NCBI GenBank assembly: GCA_964368135.1
Contig: CAYIZI010000003.1
Coordinates: 1-50,317 of the forward strand
Reading direction: 5' to 3'
Length of the DNA stretch: 50,317 bases
From: an uncultured Candidatus Saccharibacteria bacterium
GTDB lineage: Bacteria; Patescibacteriota; Minisyncoccia; 2-02-FULL-40-12
Position 1 is the stretch's first letter. Each line of letters begins with the position of its first letter. The notes beneath the pieces were generated by a model that saw only the letters and a program-made list of their open reading frames with translations, did no database searches and had not been told where the DNA came from. Positions 232 to 22,164 of this stretch are shown in pieces. The translations under genes were made by a program, and so were the position numbers.

Positions 232-915
232 TCAAGCGGTATTATGTATTTGATAAATAGGGATTTTTGAAACAAAATTGGCCTTACGTTTCAAGCCGAT
301 AGGAAAATTTTTATAATACATATATCTTAATAATGTTTCAGAATCTTTCATGCCATATCCTAATTTTAAAGAGTTGCCTCTATTATAAATACCGAGTTTT
401 TTGTATTTTAAATTTAGTTCATGCTTTAATGCGTCCATCAGGCCTTCTAGAAATTTTTTACTTCCTGATGTAAAATTTGTTCTCAGTTCTCTTGTATATC
501 TTTTATCCTTAGTTCTGATATATTTAACAAAAAATACACTACCATCGCCATCAAAATAACCGCGAATAAAATCTTTTATATAGTTTTTTGGAATATAAGG
601 GAATTCTATTATTCTACTTTTACATCTTAAACCTCCGAGTTTGATTAATTTTTCATATAATTTCCTAGAATGCATAGCAATTTGCCATACATTGTCTTCT
701 TTGCGTAAGCGAAGAGGATGAGTTGAATTCATTTTAGATCGAATTCTTTCTAGAATTTCCCTATCTTTAGAAAAGAAAAGAATCCTGTAAGATTTCTCCT
801 TTCTCATATAGCCATCCGCAAACCAAAACCCTAATATGTAAGCCATTGTTGGATTCCAGGCGTCAAAAAACGATTCGTTGATTTTGTATTTACGGTTTGT
901 ACTACGGTAGACCAT
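232..915 (-). CDS. LAGLIDADG-family homing endonuclease, free-standing
   Basis: 227-aa ORF with two LAGLIDADG-type motifs (LGFWFADGYM and IRGYFDGDGSV). It lies between tRNA-Cys and tRNA-Leu on the same strand. Confidence 0.85.
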   Translation of the reverse strand: MVYRSTNRKYKINESFFDAWNPTMAYILGFWFADGYMRKEKSYRILFFSKDREILERIRSKMNSTHPLRLRKEDNVWQIAMHSRKLYEKLIKLGGLRCKSRIIEFPYIPKNYIKDFIRGYFDGDGSVFFVKYIRTKDKRYTRELRTNFTSGSKKFLEGLMDALKHELNLKYKKLGIYNRGNSLKLGYGMKDSETLLRYMYYKNFPIGLKRKANFVSKIPIYQIHNTA

Positions 916-1024: not shown

Positions 1025-2587
1025 TTAGATACTTCTTCTAATTTTTTCTTCTTGATAAATTTCTAAAATGTCTCTTTCTTGAATTTCAGCCGGTCCTTCA
1101 AACTTGATTCCGCACTCAAGTCCTTCTTTAACTTCTTCCACATCAGCTTTATTGTGCTGAAGCTGGCCTAATCTGCCGGAAATCATTTTAGCTTTATTTC
1201 TTAAAACGTCAATCAGGGCTCCTCTTTTAGCATAGCCCGAAACAACTTTTCCTCCAACAATTTGATAATTGGCGCCGCTTTTGAAAAGTTTTAAGATTTT
1301 TACTTTACCCAACGGGATTATTTTTATTTCTGGTTCAAGCAGTTCGGAAAGCTCCTTTCTTAATTCTTCAATCAGTTCATAGATGACTTTGAATGTTTTA
1401 ATCGCCACCTTTTCTTTTTCGGCCAGCCGTCTGGCTGAATCCTCGGTTTCAACATGAAATCCGTAGATAAATCCCTGGCCATTGGCCGCGGTCTGGACAT
1501 CATTATCTTTTATATTGCCGATGCCGTAGCTGACCACATTATAACCCACCTCTTCGGTCCCGATGTTTTTAATTGACTCACTTATCGCCTCAAGCGAACT
1601 GTGAGTGTCGGCCTTGAACACCAGATTCATTATTTTTTTGCCTGCCCCGTAGCGATGCGAAGCATCTGCTTCGGGGTTTTCCTCCTTTAGGAACAAAGGC
1701 GGCTCAACAACTAAGGCCTGTTTGGCCGCTTCCTGTGCTTCTTTTTTGTCTTCTACGGCTTTAAACTCCTGGCCCACGTCTGGGCCTTGGCTCCAGCCAA
1801 GAGTTAAAACCGGTTGGGACGGCAGAGCTTCTTTTATGTTTTTGCCGGTAAAATCTTCCATCATTTTGATTTTGGCAAAAGTTCCGCCGCTGACAATGCA
1901 GTCTCCGATTTTTAAAGTTCCTTCTTGGACTAAAAGAGTGGCCACGCAGCCGCGCCTTGAATCCAGGTGGGACTCAATAACTATTCCCTTTGCTTTTTGG
2001 TTTGGGTCAGCTTCCAGATTTTCAAATTCGGCGGTCAAAAGGATTAGTTCTAAAAGTTCATCAATTCCTTTTCCGTTTTTGGCTGAAGTTTCAACAGCCG
2101 GAATCTGGCCGCCATAGCCCTCCAAAAAAACTCCGGCTTCAGCCAACTGTTGTTTTATCATGGCTGGCCTTGCTTCTTCTTTATCAATTTTGTTTAAAGC
2201 CGCGATAAAAGGAATTTTTGCATTTTGAATATGTTTGATTGCTTCTTTGGTTTGGGGTTTGACTCCATCGTCGGCGGCAATTACTAAAATGGCGATGTCA
2301 GCTACTTTGGCCCCGCGGCGGCGAATGGCTGAAAAAGCTTCATGCCCCGGCGTGTCCAGAAAAGTTATTTTTTTAACTTGCCCCGAACTGATTGAAGGAT
2401 GTTCGACCTGGTAAGCACCGATATGCTGGGTAATGCCGCCAGCCTCTTTTTCGGCGATTTTAGTCTTTCTGATATAGTCCAGAATTTTAGTCTTGCCATG
2501 ATCCACGTGTCCTAAAACGACCACTATTGGTGGCCGTTTAGCAGAGCTATTAGTTTTAATATTGGTTTCTTCCATAATTGTCGGCAA
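1025..2587 (-). CDS. infB: translation initiation factor IF-2 (short form, 520 aa)
   Basis: G1 motif [16 protein letters not shown] and NKID GTPase motifs, and C-terminal IF-2 domains. The start is non-ATG (TTG) at 2587, or ATG four codons downstream. Confidence 0.9.
1634..1680 (-). repeat. 47-nt in-frame hairpin element, copy in infB (peptide [15 protein letters not shown])
   Basis: Plus-strand TTTTTTGCCTGCCCCGTAGCGATGCGAAGCATCTGCTTCGGGGTTTT aligns without gaps to 7005..7051 in murB, with 36/47 positions identical. The hairpin architecture is the same, with compensatory changes. Confidence 0.75.
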
Positions 2588-5309: not shown

Positions 5310-6601
5310 AGTAACCTCTCTCCAACCTTATAAATATCGCCGGCGCCCATTAAGATAATTACATAATTTTTGCCGAAATTAACCATTAAATAATCTACTA
5401 TTTTTCGAAAATTTTCAAGAGCTAAAACACGTCCCCCTTTTTGTTTTATTTTCTCTGCCAGAACTTTAGAGCTTATACTTCCGTCATCTTCTTCTCTGGC
5501 TTTGTAAATCGGCGCTAAGATTATTTTATCCGCCTCGTTAAAACTCTTTGCAAACTCGTTGAGTAGTAGTTTTGTCCGGCTGAAAAGATGGGGCTGGAAA
5601 ACGACTACTAATTTTTTATTAGGAAATTTTTCTCGGAAAGCTTTTAGAGTCGTTTTTATTTCGGTGGGGTGATGGGCATAATCATCATAAACTAAGGCGC
5701 CTATTTTAGTCTTGCCTTTGAATTCAAATCTTCGCCAAACCCCTTGGTAGTTTTTAAGCGCAGTAATTATTTTTTCTTCTGGAATTCCCAAAACCTTAGC
5801 CACTGCGAAAGCTGTCTTTGCGTTTTCAATGTTATGCTGACCTGGGAATTTAAGTTTGAAATTATTTTTAACTTTTGAGTAATTAATGATTTGGCACTTT
5901 GCCGATTTCAGAGCCGGTTTAACTTTTGGATCAACAGGATTACAGATTAGGAATCCGTCTTCGGGAATTTTTGAAACCAGTTCACTGAATGCGTTTTGAA
6001 TATCAACTAAGTTTTTATAATAATCCAAATGGTCAGCTTCAATATTAGTGATCACAAGAATTTTGGGCACGAGATTGAGAAAATGCCGTTGGTACTCGTC
6101 TGCTTCCGCGATAAAGTAATCACTTTTTCCAGCCCGAAAATTACTTTTGGTTTTGGTCCGAAGCGAGCCGACAATCGCGGTCGGATCTTTGCCTGCATCT
6201 TCAAGAATATCAACGAGCATGGCCGTGGTCGTGGTTTTGCCATGGGCCCCGGCAACGGCAATGAGATAATATTTATTGGCAATTTTACCAAGAGCCTGAA
6301 AATATGAGAGCACCGGTACTCCTTTTTGCTTGGCCGCTTCAATAATCGCTGGGTTCATTGTTAGCCAGGCGTCGCTAAAAATGTACAAATCAGCCTCGGG
6401 CAAATGTGTTGGATTTTGGTCCAGCGAGATCTGAACGCCCTGGCTTCGCAGTTCATCCAAAGTTTCCGGGCTCGGATTGTCATTTGTTCCTGAAATTTCT
6501 TTTTTCTCGTGAAGCAACAGCCGAGCAAGCGCTGAAATCCCAACTCCGCCAATGCCGATAAAATGGATTCGCTTTACATTAGATATATTGAATTTCTTCA
6601 T
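5300..6601 (-). CDS. murC: UDP-N-acetylmuramate--L-alanine ligase
   Basis: N-terminal GIGGVGISALA Rossmann motif and the Mur ligase P-loop GAHGKTTTT. 433 aa. The stop codon lies inside the tRNA-Ala 5' acceptor stem. Confidence 0.9.
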   Translation of the reverse strand: MKKFNISNVKRIHFIGIGGVGISALARLLLHEKKEISGTNDNPSPETLDELRSQGVQISLDQNPTHLPEADLYIFSDAWLTMNPAIIEAAKQKGVPVLSYFQALGKIANKYYLIAVAGAHGKTTTTAMLVDILEDAGKDPTAIVGSLRTKTKSNFRAGKSDYFIAEADEYQRHFLNLVPKILVITNIEADHLDYYKNLVDIQNAFSELVSKIPEDGFLICNPVDPKVKPALKSAKCQIINYSKVKNNFKLKFPGQHNIENAKTAFAVAKVLGIPEEKIITALKNYQGVWRRFEFKGKTKIGALVYDDYAHHPTEIKTTLKAFREKFPNKKLVVVFQPHLFSRTKLLLNEFAKSFNEADKIILAPIYKAREEDDGSISSKVLAEKIKQKGGRVLALENFRKIVDYLMVNFGKNYVIILMGAGDIYKVGERLLGL

Positions 6602-7580
6602 CTAAATTTATGCCGAATTTATTTTTAACTTTTTGTTTTAAGATTTTAGCCAGCTTTATTATTTCAGATGATTTGCCTTTGCCCGGATTAAAAATCAAAT
6701 TGCCATGATGCTTAGCTACTTTGATTCTTCCAACCTTCATTCCTTTAGCGCCGACTTCTTCCAGAAGATAACCAGTTGGCACCTTGCCGTGATTGACTTT
6801 GCTTTTGTCTATTTTTGATAAAAATTTTTGCCGCAGAGCCGGCCTTACATTATTAATAACAATATTTTTGAAAAAACTGCCTGGGCACAAAAGACCAGGC
6901 CAATATTTCTTTTCTCGCATTTTTATTATTTCTTTTGATGTTTTTTGAAGTTCCTTGGGATCGCCTTTTTTAAATTTGAACTCCGCCCCCAGAATTATCC
7001 AATCTTTTTTCCCTGCCCCATAGGAAGCCGGAGGCTTTCCTTCGGGGTTTTTAAAAATACTTTCCCGGTAACCAAAACGGCATTGTTTTTTTGAGAGCCA
7101 TTGAGTTTCCTTGCCGTTATAAATTTTCACTTTTGTCAGGCAATCTTTTATCTCTTGGCTGTAGGCGCCAGCCGAACCGTAAATCGCTCCGCCGATTGTG
7201 CCGGGAATCCCGGCCATTTTCTCCATTCCAGCCCAGCCAAACTGATTTAACTTATATATAAATGTAAGAAGATTATTTCCAGCGCCGACAAAAAATCTGT
7301 TTCCATTCTTTTCAAAATTTTTAATTTCATTTTTGATTACCAATCCGTTAAAACCCGAGTCAGACGGTACCAAATTTGAGCCGTCACCAATAATATACCA
7401 TTTAATTTTACTATCTTTTGCCCAGTTAATGGCCGAAATTAAATCATTTTCCTTTTTGGCAATAAAAAAATATTTGGCTGGCCCGCCAATTTTCATAGTC
7501 GTCAGTTTTTTAAGAGGATAATTTGTTAAAATCTTGGCTTTGGGAATCATTTTGGATGTTGATAACTTTTGTTGCACCAT
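6579..7580 (-). CDS. murB: UDP-N-acetylenolpyruvoylglucosamine reductase
   Basis: FAD-binding N-terminus (TTMKIGGPAKYF, GDGSNL) and a MurB C-terminal domain. An alternative start lies at 7550. It overlaps the murC start by 23 nt. Confidence 0.9.
   Translation of the reverse strand: MVQQKLSTSKMIPKAKILTNYPLKKLTTMKIGGPAKYFFIAKKENDLISAINWAKDSKIKWYIIGDGSNLVPSDSGFNGLVIKNEIKNFEKNGNRFFVGAGNNLLTFIYKLNQFGWAGMEKMAGIPGTIGGAIYGSAGAYSQEIKDCLTKVKIYNGKETQWLSKKQCRFGYRESIFKNPEGKPPASYGAGKKDWIILGAEFKFKKGDPKELQKTSKEIIKMREKKYWPGLLCPGSFFKNIVINNVRPALRQKFLSKIDKSKVNHGKVPTGYLLEEVGAKGMKVGRIKVAKHHGNLIFNPGKGKSSEIIKLAKILKQKVKNKFGINLDEEIQYI
7005..7051 (-). repeat. 47-nt in-frame hairpin element, copy in murB (peptide NPEGKPPASYGAGKK)
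   Basis: TTTTTTCCCTGCCCCATAGGAAGCCGGAGGCTTTCCTTCGGGGTTTT. This is the partner of 1634..1680. Confidence 0.75.
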
Positions 7581-21084: not shown

Positions 21085-21142
21085 AGAATTAGCAATTTCT
21101 CTTTAACAATTTTGATAGGAAGCCCAAGAAAGGAGGCTGACT

Positions 21143-22072
21143 ATGCGTAAGAACTTTTTGCCGTCGCTCGTCGTTCTGCTTGCTGGGGCCGCGCTGGTCG
21201 TCTCCAGCGGATGCAATATCTTCAGGAACTTGCCGAGTGCACCGGACAGTTCTGATCCGGGCCCCGCGGTCCAGAGAACTATCCGGGTGGTTTCTTGTGA
21301 AACGTTCAGTCCGATTCAAGGCGCCTTTGTTACCGTGGGGAAGAATAATAGTTCTTCGGTTACCGACGGATCAGGTTACGTAACTCTGGAAGCTGGGGAT
21401 AACGACAGGATCAAAATTGAGGCGACCGGATTTTTGGGCCCTCACGATACTCCTCTGAATGGTGAAGAAGAATTTTGCCTTTTTCCGGAAAGACCGGGAT
21501 TTGAAAGAAGTTTTATCCGCCCGTTTCTTTACAAATATATTGATCTGCGCAAACTCCGCAACTCGACCCTGAAGGTCCACTTTTCTGACGAACTCCGGGC
21601 CAACCGCGAAGTTGTGGCAATATATGAAAAAGCAATTCCGATTGCGATGTCTGCCTTTAACGGTCATGTTCGTCCCCCAGAAACACCAATAGTGATCGAA
21701 ATAATAGACGTCAACGACCAGCCTAACTTTGGGGTGGTTCTGGAAGTGTTCTTTAACTCGAATCCCGATGATCCCCCGAGGATAGATACATCGGTTGATG
21801 GGGATAATATTATCTATAGAGCTTCAAGGTCTTACAACCCAAGACATTTTCCCATCACAAATCTGCCCTCTGTTCTTTACACTCTTGGCGCGGTTACCGG
21901 CCTTGGCTCAACGGGTTGGCCGGGAATTATGCAACAGAACAATCCTTCTCCACCTGACGACTTTACGGATATCGAGAAACTAGCCATGCGTATGTCGCTG
22001 TGGAGAAAAGCTGGCAATCAGTTTCCCGACTGCACGCCTGCAAGACTTCAGCCCTGCCCCGCCATACGGTAA
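21143..22072 (+). CDS. lipoprotein of unknown function (lipobox VSSGC), GC-rich
   Basis: GGAGG Shine-Dalgarno site. Signal peptide plus Cys. A carboxypeptidase-regulatory-like beta-sandwich segment (GAFVTVGKNNSSSVTDGSGYVTLEAGDNDRIKIEATGF). GC is 60% in line 21241-21300. Confidence 0.6.
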   Translation: MRKNFLPSLVVLLAGAALVVSSGCNIFRNLPSAPDSSDPGPAVQRTIRVVSCETFSPIQGAFVTVGKNNSSSVTDGSGYVTLEAGDNDRIKIEATGFLGPHDTPLNGEEEFCLFPERPGFERSFIRPFLYKYIDLRKLRNSTLKVHFSDELRANREVVAIYEKAIPIAMSAFNGHVRPPETPIVIEIIDVNDQPNFGVVLEVFFNSNPDDPPRIDTSVDGDNIIYRASRSYNPRHFPITNLPSVLYTLGAVTGLGSTGWPGIMQQNNPSPPDDFTDIEKLAMRMSLWRKAGNQFPDCTPARLQPCPAIR

Positions 22073-22164
22073 TTTTTACCACCTTAGGCGGGGCTTTTGT
22101 TGATAACTGAGTTTATGTATTTTTAGTCTTAATATATAATTAGATTAAATATAAAAAAGTAAGT

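What the first reader, a model, noticed from the sequence alone, without database searches (positions are those of the whole stretch)
7005..7051. murB copy of the in-frame hairpin element
This is the partner of the infB element, with the same length, orientation and reading frame relative to the host gene. It interrupts the motif YRESIF|...|WIILGAEF with NPEGKPPASYGAGKKD. Both host genes are essential: translation initiation and peptidoglycan precursor synthesis. The element therefore must be neutral or beneficial at both the protein and the mRNA level. I list it separately so the locus can be inspected on its own.
Basis: seen in the sequence. Interest (0 to 1): 0.8.

Follow-up and report, generated by a model that had tools for sequence, protein, structure and literature searches.

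The report
Tiny hairpin insertion element in murB
The extra 12 amino acids in this bacterium's MurB come from a 36-base hairpin-forming DNA element that occurs, with the same conserved base and a freely varying tip, at hundreds of unrelated places in genomes of the candidate phyla radiation, and I found no description of it.

Summary
Window 7012..7047 (- strand) is a clean 36-nt insertion in murB: CCCCGAAG, a 16-nt variable hairpin top, then CTATGGGGCAGG. It adds PEGKPPASYGAG between FKN and KKD. None of 119 other MurB homologues carries it, and the closest one (79% identical) reads AAAAAC|AAAAAA at the empty site. The infB copy (1641..1676) sits in the same AAAAC^AAAAAA site, strand and codon phase.

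They share an invariant foot, a bulged A and a top stem that covaries (89% Watson-Crick against 45% when shuffled). Flanks are unrelated and there is no target duplication.

Copies deep inside genes are multiples of 3 in 45 of 51 cases, against 56 of 113 outside genes. They lie mostly in the sense orientation, so they are read through, not spliced.

The MurB model keeps its fold, and only the insert is disordered.

Best reading: a non-autonomous palindromic mobile DNA, in the manner of REP elements or Rickettsia palindromic elements, carried as a tolerated surface loop. The enzyme that moves it was not identified. No Rfam family matches, and four literature searches found no description. This is a new variant of a known kind.

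The parts
7012..7047 (-). murB copy of the element (36 nt). It reads 5'-CCCCGAAG (7047..7040), top stem-loop GAAAGCC-TCC-GGCTTC (7039..7024), CTATGGGG (7023..7016), tail CAGG (7015..7012). It encodes PEGKPPASYGAG. The boundary is ambiguous by one base; the alternative is 7011..7046.
6579..7580 (-). Host gene murB (UDP-N-acetylmuramate dehydrogenase). The deposited start is probably Met11, at 7550.
   Evidence: TIGR00179 at 210.7 bits against a cut-off of 144.5. Matches to solved MurBs. Model and fold match. Start variants.
7048..7055 (-). Host A-tract upstream of the insertion (TTTAAAAA on the - strand), part of the AAAAC^AAAAAA target.
   Evidence: The empty site in L001 reads TTT AAA AAC AAA AAA GAC.
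7005..7011 (-). Host sequence downstream of the insertion (GAAAAAA on the - strand; the Lys-Lys codons).
   Evidence: The flank statistics show A-rich flanks in the family generally.
1641..1676 (-). infB copy of the element (36 nt): CCCCGAAG-CAGATGC-TTC-GCATCG-CTACGGGG-CAGG. It encodes [12 protein letters not shown]. The alternative boundary is 1640..1675.
   Evidence: The empty site in the 77%-identical IF2 gene of L123 reads AAG GAA AAC|AAA AAA ATA.
1025..2587 (-). Host gene infB (IF-2, a short form that starts at the G domain). The likely start is the ATG at 2575.
   Evidence: TIGR00487 at 543 bits..
22053..22093 (-). Possible diverged relative: CCCCGCC-TAAGGTGGTAAAAATTACCGTATG-GCGGGG-CAGG. 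It has the same first 5 and last 9 bases but a different interior. It lies at the 3' end of ORF 21118..22069 and looks like a terminator on the + strand. Membership is not established.

Best explanation
Window 7012..7047 is one copy of a dispersed family of 34-42-nt (mostly 36-nt) palindromic insertion elements found in Patescibacteria (CPR).

**Anatomy.** 5'-CCCCG A AG N A [5-8 bp stem closed by C-G, 3-nt loop] N' CU A CGGGG CAGG-3'. The 8+12-nt foot, the A.A mismatch and the bulged A are conserved. The top stem is free to vary as long as it pairs.

**Shown here.**
- It arrived in murB as a clean 36-nt insertion into an A-tract (AAAAC^AAAAAA), with no target-site duplication.
- A second copy entered the same sequence motif in infB.
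- Because its length is a multiple of three and it carries no stop codon in this orientation, it keeps the reading frame. The 3n excess among coding copies indicates it is translated, as a 12-residue Pro/Gly-rich loop (PEGKPPASYGAG) placed seven residues after the catalytic Arg.
- The predicted MurB fold is kept, and only the insert is modelled with low confidence.

**Inferred.**
- The element is a non-autonomous mobile DNA. A trans-acting enzyme recognises the conserved foot, probably on a single-stranded DNA hairpin. The complementary strand carries GNA triloops closed by C-G, which I recall (from memory, not checked here) to be a very stable DNA hairpin motif.
- It prefers A-rich sequence on its own sense strand. 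This preference, together with selection on the encoded peptide, would explain why copies inside genes are nearly all sense-oriented.
- In murB it is most likely a tolerated passenger, not a functional module.
For: **Insertion.**
- Only the window protein has the insert among 120 MurB homologues.
- The empty sites are exact for murB and infB.
- The insert is present in three independent assemblies.

**Family.**
- More than 118 genome loci and more than 120 metagenome loci were returned, with unrelated flanks.
- The organisms are overwhelmingly Patescibacteria of several classes.
- There are only 2 hits in 2.9 million viral contigs.

**Structure.**
- 79 of 103 distinct tops fit one model, and the bulged base is A in 76 of those 79.
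- In 76 distinct 36-mers the six variable pairs are 89.5% Watson-Crick. Shuffled partners give a mean of 45% and a maximum of 52%. Each pair shows 3-4 pair types.

**Translated, not removed.**
- Copies deep inside ORFs are 3n in 18/22 and 27/29 cases, against 28/59 and 28/54 outside ORFs (Fisher p = 0.006 and 9e-5).
- Deleting non-3n copies never rejoins a split gene.
- Two reading phases dominate, PE..YGAG and PK..TGQ.

**DNA-level behaviour.**
- G.T and A.C mismatches are equally frequent, 6 against 9.
- Intergenic copies show no orientation bias, 15 against 16.
- Flanks are A-rich on the element's sense strand.
- Inverted doublets of the REPIN type occur in L065, L081 and L105.
- Identical tops recur within one locus (L085, L086, L089) and across distant lineages.

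**Protein tolerance.**
- The MurB model has pLDDT 90.3, with values below 50 only at residues 180-188 and at the N-terminus.
- TM-scores against solved MurBs are 0.85-0.87.
- An independent 39-nt copy sits in the same IF2 linker of another lineage (L124).
Against: - No mobilising enzyme was identified. The IS200-like Y1 transposase genes found within 2 kb of copies (8 in about 1.6 Mb) each carry their own, different terminal hairpins.
- No recent transposition was caught. There is no filled/empty polymorphism within one species. The two window copies have different tops, so neither is a fresh copy of the other.
- Copy number is modest, about 1 per 25-50 kb, unlike classical REPs.
- A 20-nt foot conserved across classes of a whole phylum is unusual for selfish DNA and could point to a host function.
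- Sense bias in genes (51:7) exceeds what stop codons alone predict (60%, p = 5.6e-6). An RNA-level role in the sense orientation is therefore not excluded.
- Translation of the insert is inferred from frame statistics and was not observed.
Confidence: 0.7

Rival explanations
1. It is a functional RNA or DNA module that has been retained or domesticated. The conserved foot would be a binding site for a conserved CPR protein, or the hairpin would act on expression. One such role is as an intrinsic terminator for antisense transcription: on the + strand both window copies read as a hairpin followed by TTTT(T). Another is as an mRNA-stabilising or ribosome-pausing hairpin.
For: - The foot, the A.A mismatch and the bulged A are conserved across several CPR classes.
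- Both window copies are flagged as terminator-like on the + strand.
- Sense bias inside genes exceeds the stop-codon expectation.
- The loop is strand-asymmetric, TNC on the sense strand.
- Several non-coding copies lie just upstream of start codons.
Against: - Only 18% of copies have at least 5 A in the 8 nt upstream, so most are not followed by a T-run on the other strand.
- Positions are not conserved between orthologues. 119 MurB homologues and the 70 closest IF2 homologues do without the insert.
- Intergenic copies have no preferred orientation relative to neighbouring genes.
- There is no excess of G.U over A.C, which RNA-level selection would produce.
- No Rfam family matches.
Confidence: 0.15
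2. The element spreads without a dedicated enzyme. Replication would switch templates, or gene conversion would occur, between A-tracts. A nascent strand ending in AAAAC mispairs at another locus that already has AAAAC-hairpin-AAAAAA, copies the stable hairpin, and returns through the downstream A-run.
For: - Both window copies, and the independent IF2 copy in L124, are followed by AAAAAA. The two window copies are also preceded by AAAAC.
- Flanks are A-enriched on both sides in the whole family: 18% and 27% of 8-nt flanks have at least 5 A, against 10% background.
- There is no target duplication.
- No cognate transposase was found.
Against: - Most copies lack long A-runs on both sides.
- This mechanism gives no reason for the invariant foot, the bulged A and the A.A mismatch to be preserved while the top varies.
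- Copies occur in tRNA-like D- and T-loops with no A-tract.
Confidence: 0.1
3. It is an intron-like or bypassed sequence. The hairpin would be excised from the RNA, or skipped by the ribosome as in T4 gene 60, so that MurB and IF2 are made without the extra residues.
For: - It is a stable hairpin lying in the sense strand of two essential genes.
- Gene-internal copies are mostly in the sense orientation.
Against: - If the sequence were removed, its length would not need to be 3n. Yet 45 of 51 deep-coding copies are 3n, against 56 of 113 non-coding ones.
- Non-3n copies never interrupt an otherwise intact gene.
- The copies contain no stop codons and have no matched take-off and landing codons.
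- Seven in-frame antisense copies exist.
- Copies next to tRNA genes sit in decayed tRNA fragments, not in working tRNAs.
- 36 nt is far below any self-splicing intron, and there is no bulge-helix-bulge motif.
Confidence: 0.03
4. It is an ordinary lineage-specific loop of MurB, and the resemblance to infB is coincidental or a product of compositional bias.
For: The site is a loop that varies in length between MurB subfamilies. E. coli MurB has HEYQDR at this position.
Against: - The 20 conserved foot bases are shared exactly with infB apart from one C/T difference, with 0 matches expected by chance.
- About 240 further copies with unrelated flanks were found.
- The insert is absent from all 119 other MurB homologues.
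Confidence: 0.01

Closest known systems
Rickettsia palindromic elements (RPEs). Characteristics are from my own knowledge; the in-frame behaviour is mentioned in the MITE review PMC10969869, which came up.
   Same: [quoted passage not shown] Both are translated as an extra surface peptide and also occur in non-coding DNA and RNA genes.
   Different: RPEs are roughly 100-150 bp and confined to Rickettsia. This element is 34-42 nt and forms a single hairpin with an invariant foot and a hypervariable top. It is spread across a whole phylum-level radiation. There is no sequence relationship.
REP / REPIN elements mobilised by RAYT (Y1 HUH) transposases (PMC3116915, PMC3733652 and PMC2817692, listed)
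   Same: Both are imperfect GC-rich palindromes of 20-40 nt with a conserved foot. On the complementary strand a GTAG sits at the 5' foot (CCCC-GTAG-...). Occasional inverted doublets occur, and there is no target duplication.
   Different: REPs are extragenic, number in the hundreds per genome, are specific to a species or genus, and have a cognate RAYT gene flanked by REPs. Here a large share of copies lies inside ORFs (51 of about 240 deep inside). Density is about 1 per 25-50 kb. The foot is shared across classes. No cognate RAYT was found, since nearby Y1 genes have their own different hairpins.
GC clusters of yeast mitochondrial DNA and the 'byp' elements derived from them (from my own knowledge)
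   Same: Both are short (30-50 nt) GC-rich hairpin elements scattered in an AT-richer genome. Both insert into A/T-rich targets, sometimes inside coding sequences.
   Different: GC clusters are organellar, are flanked by short target repeats, and in some yeasts are skipped by the ribosome. Here the frame statistics argue for translation, no target repeat is seen, and the host is bacterial.
IS200/IS605-family derivatives (PATEs) and their single-strand hairpin transposition
   Same: Insertion leaves no target duplication, recognition of a DNA hairpin is implied, and the element is very small and non-autonomous.
   Different: PATEs keep two different subterminal hairpins (left and right ends) and insert 3' of a fixed tetra- or pentanucleotide. 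This element has one hairpin, and only a loose A-rich target with a possible C^A junction.

Membership tests
REP/REPIN-RAYT system | Short (20-40 nt) imperfect palindrome repeated in the genome | tested here: met
   Hairpin of 34-42 nt. There are 2 copies in the window and about 240 in other CPR sequences.
REP/REPIN-RAYT system | Conserved GTAG (or CGTC) tetranucleotide at one end of the palindrome | tested here: inconclusive
   The complementary strand reads CCTG-CCCC-GTAG-stem..., so a GTAG is present in essentially all copies. It lies inside the outer stem, not at the terminus.
REP/REPIN-RAYT system | Extragenic location | tested here: not met
   51 sense and 7 antisense copies lie deep inside long ORFs, including murB, infB and pnp.
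REP/REPIN-RAYT system | Cognate single-copy RAYT gene flanked by the repeats | tested here: not met
   8 Y1_Tnp genes lie within 2 kb of copies, but each is bracketed by its own unrelated hairpins of the ordinary IS200 type. Whole genomes were not available, so a distant RAYT cannot be excluded.
REP/REPIN-RAYT system | Hundreds of copies per genome, often as inverted doublets | tested here: not met
   There are 2 copies in 50 kb here, and about 18 extra copies in 0.9 Mb of ascertained loci. Doublets occur in only 3 loci.
Rickettsia palindromic elements | In-frame insertion into ORFs, translated with the host protein | tested here: met
   Clean 36-nt insertions and 3n enrichment in coding copies. 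Translation is inferred and was not observed.
Rickettsia palindromic elements | Size of about 100-150 bp and sequence families RPE-1 to RPE-8 of Rickettsia | tested here: not met
   The element is 36 nt and the host is Patescibacteria.
MITE (miniature inverted-repeat transposable element) | Terminal inverted repeats plus a target-site duplication | tested here: not met
   Comparison of filled and empty sites shows no duplication. The whole element is one hairpin.
Intrinsic (Rho-independent) terminator | GC-rich hairpin followed directly by a U-run on the transcribed strand | tested here: inconclusive
   The feature is met on the + strand (antisense to the genes) for both window copies. Only 18% of all copies have an A-rich upstream flank.
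Self-splicing or enzyme-spliced intron / translational bypass element | Removal from the RNA, or skipping, makes length and frame irrelevant. Interrupted genes are restored by deletion. | tested here: not met
   Coding copies show a 3n bias. No split gene is restored by deleting a copy. No Rfam intron or ribozyme matches.
Rfam RNA families | Match to a curated covariance model | tested here: not met
   No family matches at the gathering threshold. Only chance-level hits appear at E up to 10.

The most novel reading that the evidence does not exclude
The hairpin is a previously unrecognised class of element specific to the candidate phyla radiation. Its invariant foot, with the A.A mismatch, the bulged A and the CAGG tail, would be the recognition site of a conserved, still unknown host or mobile-element protein. 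Its top would be free to vary. Under this reading it is either a new single-hairpin ssDNA transposition system that can colonise essential genes in frame, or a domesticated module with a role in these reduced genomes, such as antisense termination or a protein-binding site. Conservation of the foot across several CPR classes would then reflect function and not recent spread.
Probability: 0.25. Interest if true: 0.8.

Novelty: new variant of a known kind. Interest (0 to 1): 0.62.

Why it matters
CPR bacteria have tiny, streamlined genomes and make up a large share of bacterial diversity, yet their mobile DNA is poorly charted.

- **Scientific point.** A 36-nt element that can sit inside murB, infB and pnp without breaking them, and whose recognition foot is shared across the radiation, would be one of the smallest mobile elements known. 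It would also be a source of 12-14-residue loop insertions in CPR proteins.
- **Practical consequences.** Such inserts inflate apparent protein divergence and disturb alignments and phylogenies of marker genes. They can also mimic terminators on the opposite strand. Once characterised, the element could serve as a lineage marker.
- **What finding the enzyme would show.** It would identify either a new hairpin-DNA transposition mechanism or a conserved CPR nucleic-acid-binding function.

Tried and rejected
- **Rfam.** The whole window at the gathering threshold found only 8 tRNAs. The locus at E up to 10 gave only chance hits. A further 18 non-coding loci showed no rRNA, tmRNA or RNase P host.
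- **tRNA intron idea.** Several copies looked as if they sat in D- or T-loops. After deleting the element, ARAGORN found no tRNA spanning any junction. The copies lie in decayed tRNA fragments beside intact tRNAs.
- **Intron or bypass idea.** Deleting non-3n copies never restored a gene. The candidate cases (L065, L106, L022, L098 and others) turned out to lie in 5' leaders or to give spurious ORFs.
- **RNA signature.** There is no excess of G.U over A.C mismatches.
- **Replication- or transcription-coupled strand bias.** Intergenic copies are unbiased.
- **Phage vector.** There are only 2 hits in the viral collection.
- **Cognate transposase.** Clustering 755 neighbouring ORFs turned up IS200-like Y1 genes and small GIY-YIG genes. 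The Y1 genes have their own hairpins. The GIY-YIG proximity (7 within 300 nt) is about what intergenic co-location predicts, by my rough estimate.
- **Literature.** The foot sequence appears in three unrelated papers and in none that describes this element. Four searches combining CPR group names (Patescibacteria, candidate phyla radiation, Saccharibacteria, Parcubacteria) with repeat, REP, MITE or IS200 terms found no description.
- **More copies in the window.** Scans allowing mismatches, and a generic hairpin scan, found only the two copies plus one doubtful relative at 22053..22093.
- **Steps skipped.** A covariance model was not built, because the regular-expression and mismatch scans already answered the question. 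A second structure model without the insert was not run, because solved MurBs lacking the insert superpose well on the model.
Full report
**1. The observation**

On the - strand, the sense strand of murB (6579..7580) and of infB (1025..2587), the window holds two near-identical arrangements. Each reads AAAAC-CCCGAAG, then a 16-nt variable stretch, then CTAYGGGGCAGGS-AAAAAA. The pattern AACCCCGAAG-N(10-40)-GGGGCAGG matches exactly twice, with 0 matches in 100 shuffles. Looser searches find no other copy in the window. Each copy folds into a 32-nt hairpin of about -19 to -20 kcal/mol as RNA.

The conserved parts form the bottom of the hairpin. The two tops differ in sequence (GAAAGCC-TCC-GGCTTC and CAGATGC-TTC-GCATCG), but both pair. 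Both copies are in the same codon phase: AAC CCC GAA ... GGG GCA GGS AAA AAA.

**2. It is an insertion, and its size is 36 nt**

The host ORFs are MurB (TIGR00179) and IF-2 (TIGR00487). The nearest relatives are Patescibacteria/Parcubacteria.

In an alignment of the 120 best MurB homologues, only the window protein has extra residues here. The others read FK(N/K/S..)-KKDW without a gap, so the insert is PEGKPPASYGAG, 12 aa. The gene of the closest homologue (79% identical, locus L001) reads TTT AAA AAC|AAA AAA GAC. The window reads TTT AAA AAC [36 nt] AAA AAA GAT. This is an exact 36-nt insertion with no target duplication.

For infB, the 77%-identical gene in L123 reads AAG GAA AAC|AAA AAA ATA at the homologous place. 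That is again an exact 36-nt insertion into AAAAC^AAAAAA. None of the 70 closest IF2 homologues inspected shares this insert.

The element can be written as CCCC...CAGG (7012..7047) or, shifted one base, as CCC...CAGGS (7011..7046). A scan that did not require the first C still found C there in 109 of 110 regular copies. I therefore count the C as part of the element, or as an obligatory target base.

**3. It belongs to a large family**

These are overwhelmingly Patescibacteria: Saccharibacteria, Nomura-, Kaiser-, Giovannoni-, Nealson-, Moran-, Yanofsky-bacteria and others. A few irregular chance matches fall in other phyla, and a few regular copies fall in MAGs labelled otherwise.

The viral collection gave 2. 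Flanks are unrelated between copies. In the ascertained loci, about 18 further copies with one to three foot mismatches turned up in 0.9 Mb. A relative's contig fetched for a different reason carries a copy inside pnp (L123 5158..5189). This suggests roughly one copy per 25-50 kb.

**4. Anatomy**

Of 103 distinct tops, 79 fit a single model. That model has one base pair, a one-base bulge (A in 76 of 79), an ungapped stem, and a loop of 3 nt (62 cases) or 4 nt (17 cases).

In 76 distinct 36-mers, the six variable pairs are 89.5% Watson-Crick. With partners shuffled the mean is 45% and the maximum over 500 shuffles is 52%. With the partner slid by one or two positions the figure is 17-37%. Every pair shows three or four Watson-Crick types.

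The consensus is 5'-CCCCG A AG N A [stem] loop [stem] N' CU A CGGGG CAGG-3'. The loop is TNC on this strand in most copies (TTC 31, TCC 9, TGC 9, TAC 4 of 76), so it is GNA closed by C-G on the complementary strand. From memory, d(C-GNA-G) triloops are exceptionally stable DNA mini-hairpins. I use that only as a hint that a single-stranded DNA form matters.

G.T and A.C oppositions are about equally frequent, 6 against 9. Pairing therefore shows no RNA-specific or strand-specific signature. No Rfam family matches.

**5. Context statistics**

- **Orientation.** With ORFs of at least 120 codons, 49 copies lie inside an ORF in the sense orientation and 4 in the antisense. Intergenic copies between co-directional genes split 15 (same) to 16 (opposite).
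- **Replication with stricter criteria.** Requiring at least 60 codons on both sides and regular hairpins only, the genome set gives 22 sense and 0 antisense. The metagenome set gives 29 sense and 7 antisense.
- **Length.** Deep-coding copies are 3n in 18/22 and 27/29 cases. Non-coding copies are 3n in 28/59 and 28/54 cases (p = 0.006 and 9e-5).
- **Reading phase.** Two phases dominate, giving PE..YGAG (24 copies) and PK..TGQ (18). The Arg-rich phase PR..LRGR is rare (3).
- **Non-3n copies.** Removing them never rejoins a split gene. The apparent cases lie in 5' leaders or in spurious ORFs.
- **Stop codons.** These alone would give 60% sense, whereas 88% is observed (p = 5.6e-6).
- **Flanks.** These are A-rich on the element's own sense strand and poor in T. 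Upstream, 18% of 8-nt flanks have at least 5 A; downstream, 27%; background is 10%. Position -1 is A in 60% of copies and position +1 is C in 60-68%.

Coding strands of these genomes are A-rich (my inference from the Lys/Glu/Asn codon runs seen here). An orientation-specific preference for A-tracts, together with selection on the encoded peptide, therefore explains the sense bias without invoking RNA processing.

**6. Effect on MurB**

With a 67-sequence alignment, AlphaFold2 gives pLDDT 90.3 and pTM 0.86. Only residues 1-7 and 180-188 fall below 50. The insert is a coil between the segment carrying the invariant Tyr170-Arg171 and strand 194-201. The model matches solved MurBs that lack the insert at TM 0.85-0.87 normalised to the target (4pyt, 1hsk, 3tx1).

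The site is a loop whose length differs between MurB subfamilies. E. coli has HEYQDR there. Distances to FAD and substrate could not be measured, because model coordinates are not exposed by the tools.

**7. What moves it**

This remains unknown. Clustering 755 ORFs within 1.5 kb of copies revealed IS200-like Y1 transposases, confirmed as PF01797 in five that were tested. Eight such genes lie within 2 kb of a copy and none lies further out in the same loci. However, each is bracketed by its own perfect hairpins, which are unrelated to this element. They look like ordinary IS200-type insertion sequences and not like a dedicated mobiliser.

Small GIY-YIG genes are common: 19 hits in 17 of the pattern-selected loci, plus one in each of three related MurB loci. 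Seven lie within 300 nt of a copy, mostly beside tRNA genes. By my rough estimate that is what co-location in intergenic DNA would give.

Inverted doublets reminiscent of REPINs occur in L065, L081 and L105. An enzyme-free route, template switching between A-tracts, fits the two window sites but not most others.

**8. Comparison with known systems**

The element behaves like Rickettsia palindromic elements in being in-frame, translated palindromic DNA inside essential genes. In size and form it resembles REPs, with a GTAG at the foot of the complementary strand. It also recalls the GC clusters of yeast mitochondria.

It fails the defining tests for each. It is not extragenic, not high-copy, and has no REP-flanked RAYT, so it is not a REP. 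It is a third to a quarter of the size of an RPE and lives in another phylum. It has no terminal repeats or target duplication, so it is not a MITE. It has one hairpin instead of two, so it is not a PATE.

The foot sequence appears in three unrelated papers and in none that describes this element. Searches combining CPR group names with terms for repeats and mobile elements found no description. I therefore rate it a new variant of a known kind.

**9. Verdict**

- **Observation.** It is confirmed, with corrected boundaries.
It is supported and extended.
- **What the murB insert is.** It is a tolerated copy of a CPR-wide 36-nt hairpin insertion element.
- **Confidence.** Confidence is high that it is a real insertion belonging to a dispersed family.
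- **Mechanism.** The proposed mechanism is moderately supported: recognition of the foot on hairpin DNA by a trans-acting enzyme, a preference for A-tracts, and selection for benign in-frame copies. The enzyme is not identified.

Noticed in passing
window 22053..22093 (- strand): This hairpin has the same first five and last nine bases as the element (CCCCG...CGGGGCAGG) but a different, AT-richer interior. It lies at the 3' end of ORF 21118..22069. On the + strand it is followed by CTTTTGT and looks like that gene's terminator. It may be a diverged relative or a coincidence.
   Followed up: partly
window 7028..7045 and 1658..1673 (+ strand): The complements of both copies are flagged as intrinsic-terminator-like (hairpin plus a T-run) on the strand antisense to murB and infB. 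This is only a consensus match. Only about 18% of family members have the A-rich upstream flank it needs.
   Followed up: partly
L124 1281..1319; proteins P0143, P0178, P0179, P0185: The IF2 inter-domain linker is a repeated landing place. P0143 carries an independent 39-nt copy of another subfamily (PEGARQGGPYGAS), directly before the same AAAAAA. Three other IF2s carry 'PVP..(A/T)TGQ' inserts, which suggest a variant foot (CCCCGTAC...).
   Followed up: partly
L123 5158..5189: The relative whose infB site is empty carries a copy in frame inside its polynucleotide phosphorylase gene. The tail there is TAAA instead of CAGG.
   Followed up: no
L041, L078, L010, L068 (sense); L079, L099, L069, L092 (antisense): Copies sit in D-loop or T-loop positions of partial tRNA sequences lying directly beside intact tRNA genes. 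In L041 the fragment duplicates the first 20 nt of the neighbouring tRNA-Lys. This suggests that tRNA copies hit by the element decay while a duplicate stays intact.
   Followed up: partly
L010 and L104 (upstream flanks shown): A second hairpin family with a similar look, CC(G/A)CC TTCGCTAAAGCT(T/A)CGG GTGG (A)CAAGC, is also seen in a tRNA D-loop-like context.
   Followed up: no
L247 (murB of P0023; also P0036): Other Giovannonibacteria-like MurBs have a different 10-aa insert (STSGGSVADG) two strands further on. It is encoded by another small GC-rich hairpin, TCCACC-TCC-GGTGGA..., which is not a member of this family.
   Followed up: partly
L105 1..110 and 655..765: Two inverted modules of about 100 nt bracket the ribosomal protein S19 gene. 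Each contains two element-like hairpins in opposite orientation, with feet CCCCGAAG and CCCCGGTAG.
   Followed up: no
L020, L059, L066, L163, L166, L181, L206, L214: IS200-like Y1 transposase genes (PF01797, about 220-250 aa) are each flanked by their own perfect hairpins. They show that active single-strand hairpin transposons exist in these CPR genomes.
   Followed up: partly
17 of the pattern-selected loci (for example L012, L079, L099, L101, L104, L163, L167); also L002, L003, L004: Small free-standing GIY-YIG nuclease genes (about 85-95 aa) are frequent: 19 hits in the pattern-selected loci, plus one in each of the three related MurB loci. They often lie next to tRNA genes and to copies of the element.
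   Followed up: partly
window infB, residues ~63-70 ([13 protein letters not shown]): Relative to the IF2 of L002, the window's IF2 has six extra residues inside the G domain (SISSGQ region). I did not examine whether this is another small insertion.
   Followed up: no
L025, L035, L070, L071, L073, L074: Regular, well-formed copies occur in MAGs labelled Planctomycetia, Gammaproteobacteria, Omnitrophota and Elusimicrobia. These are either mis-binned CPR contigs or evidence that the element is not strictly confined to CPR.
   Followed up: no
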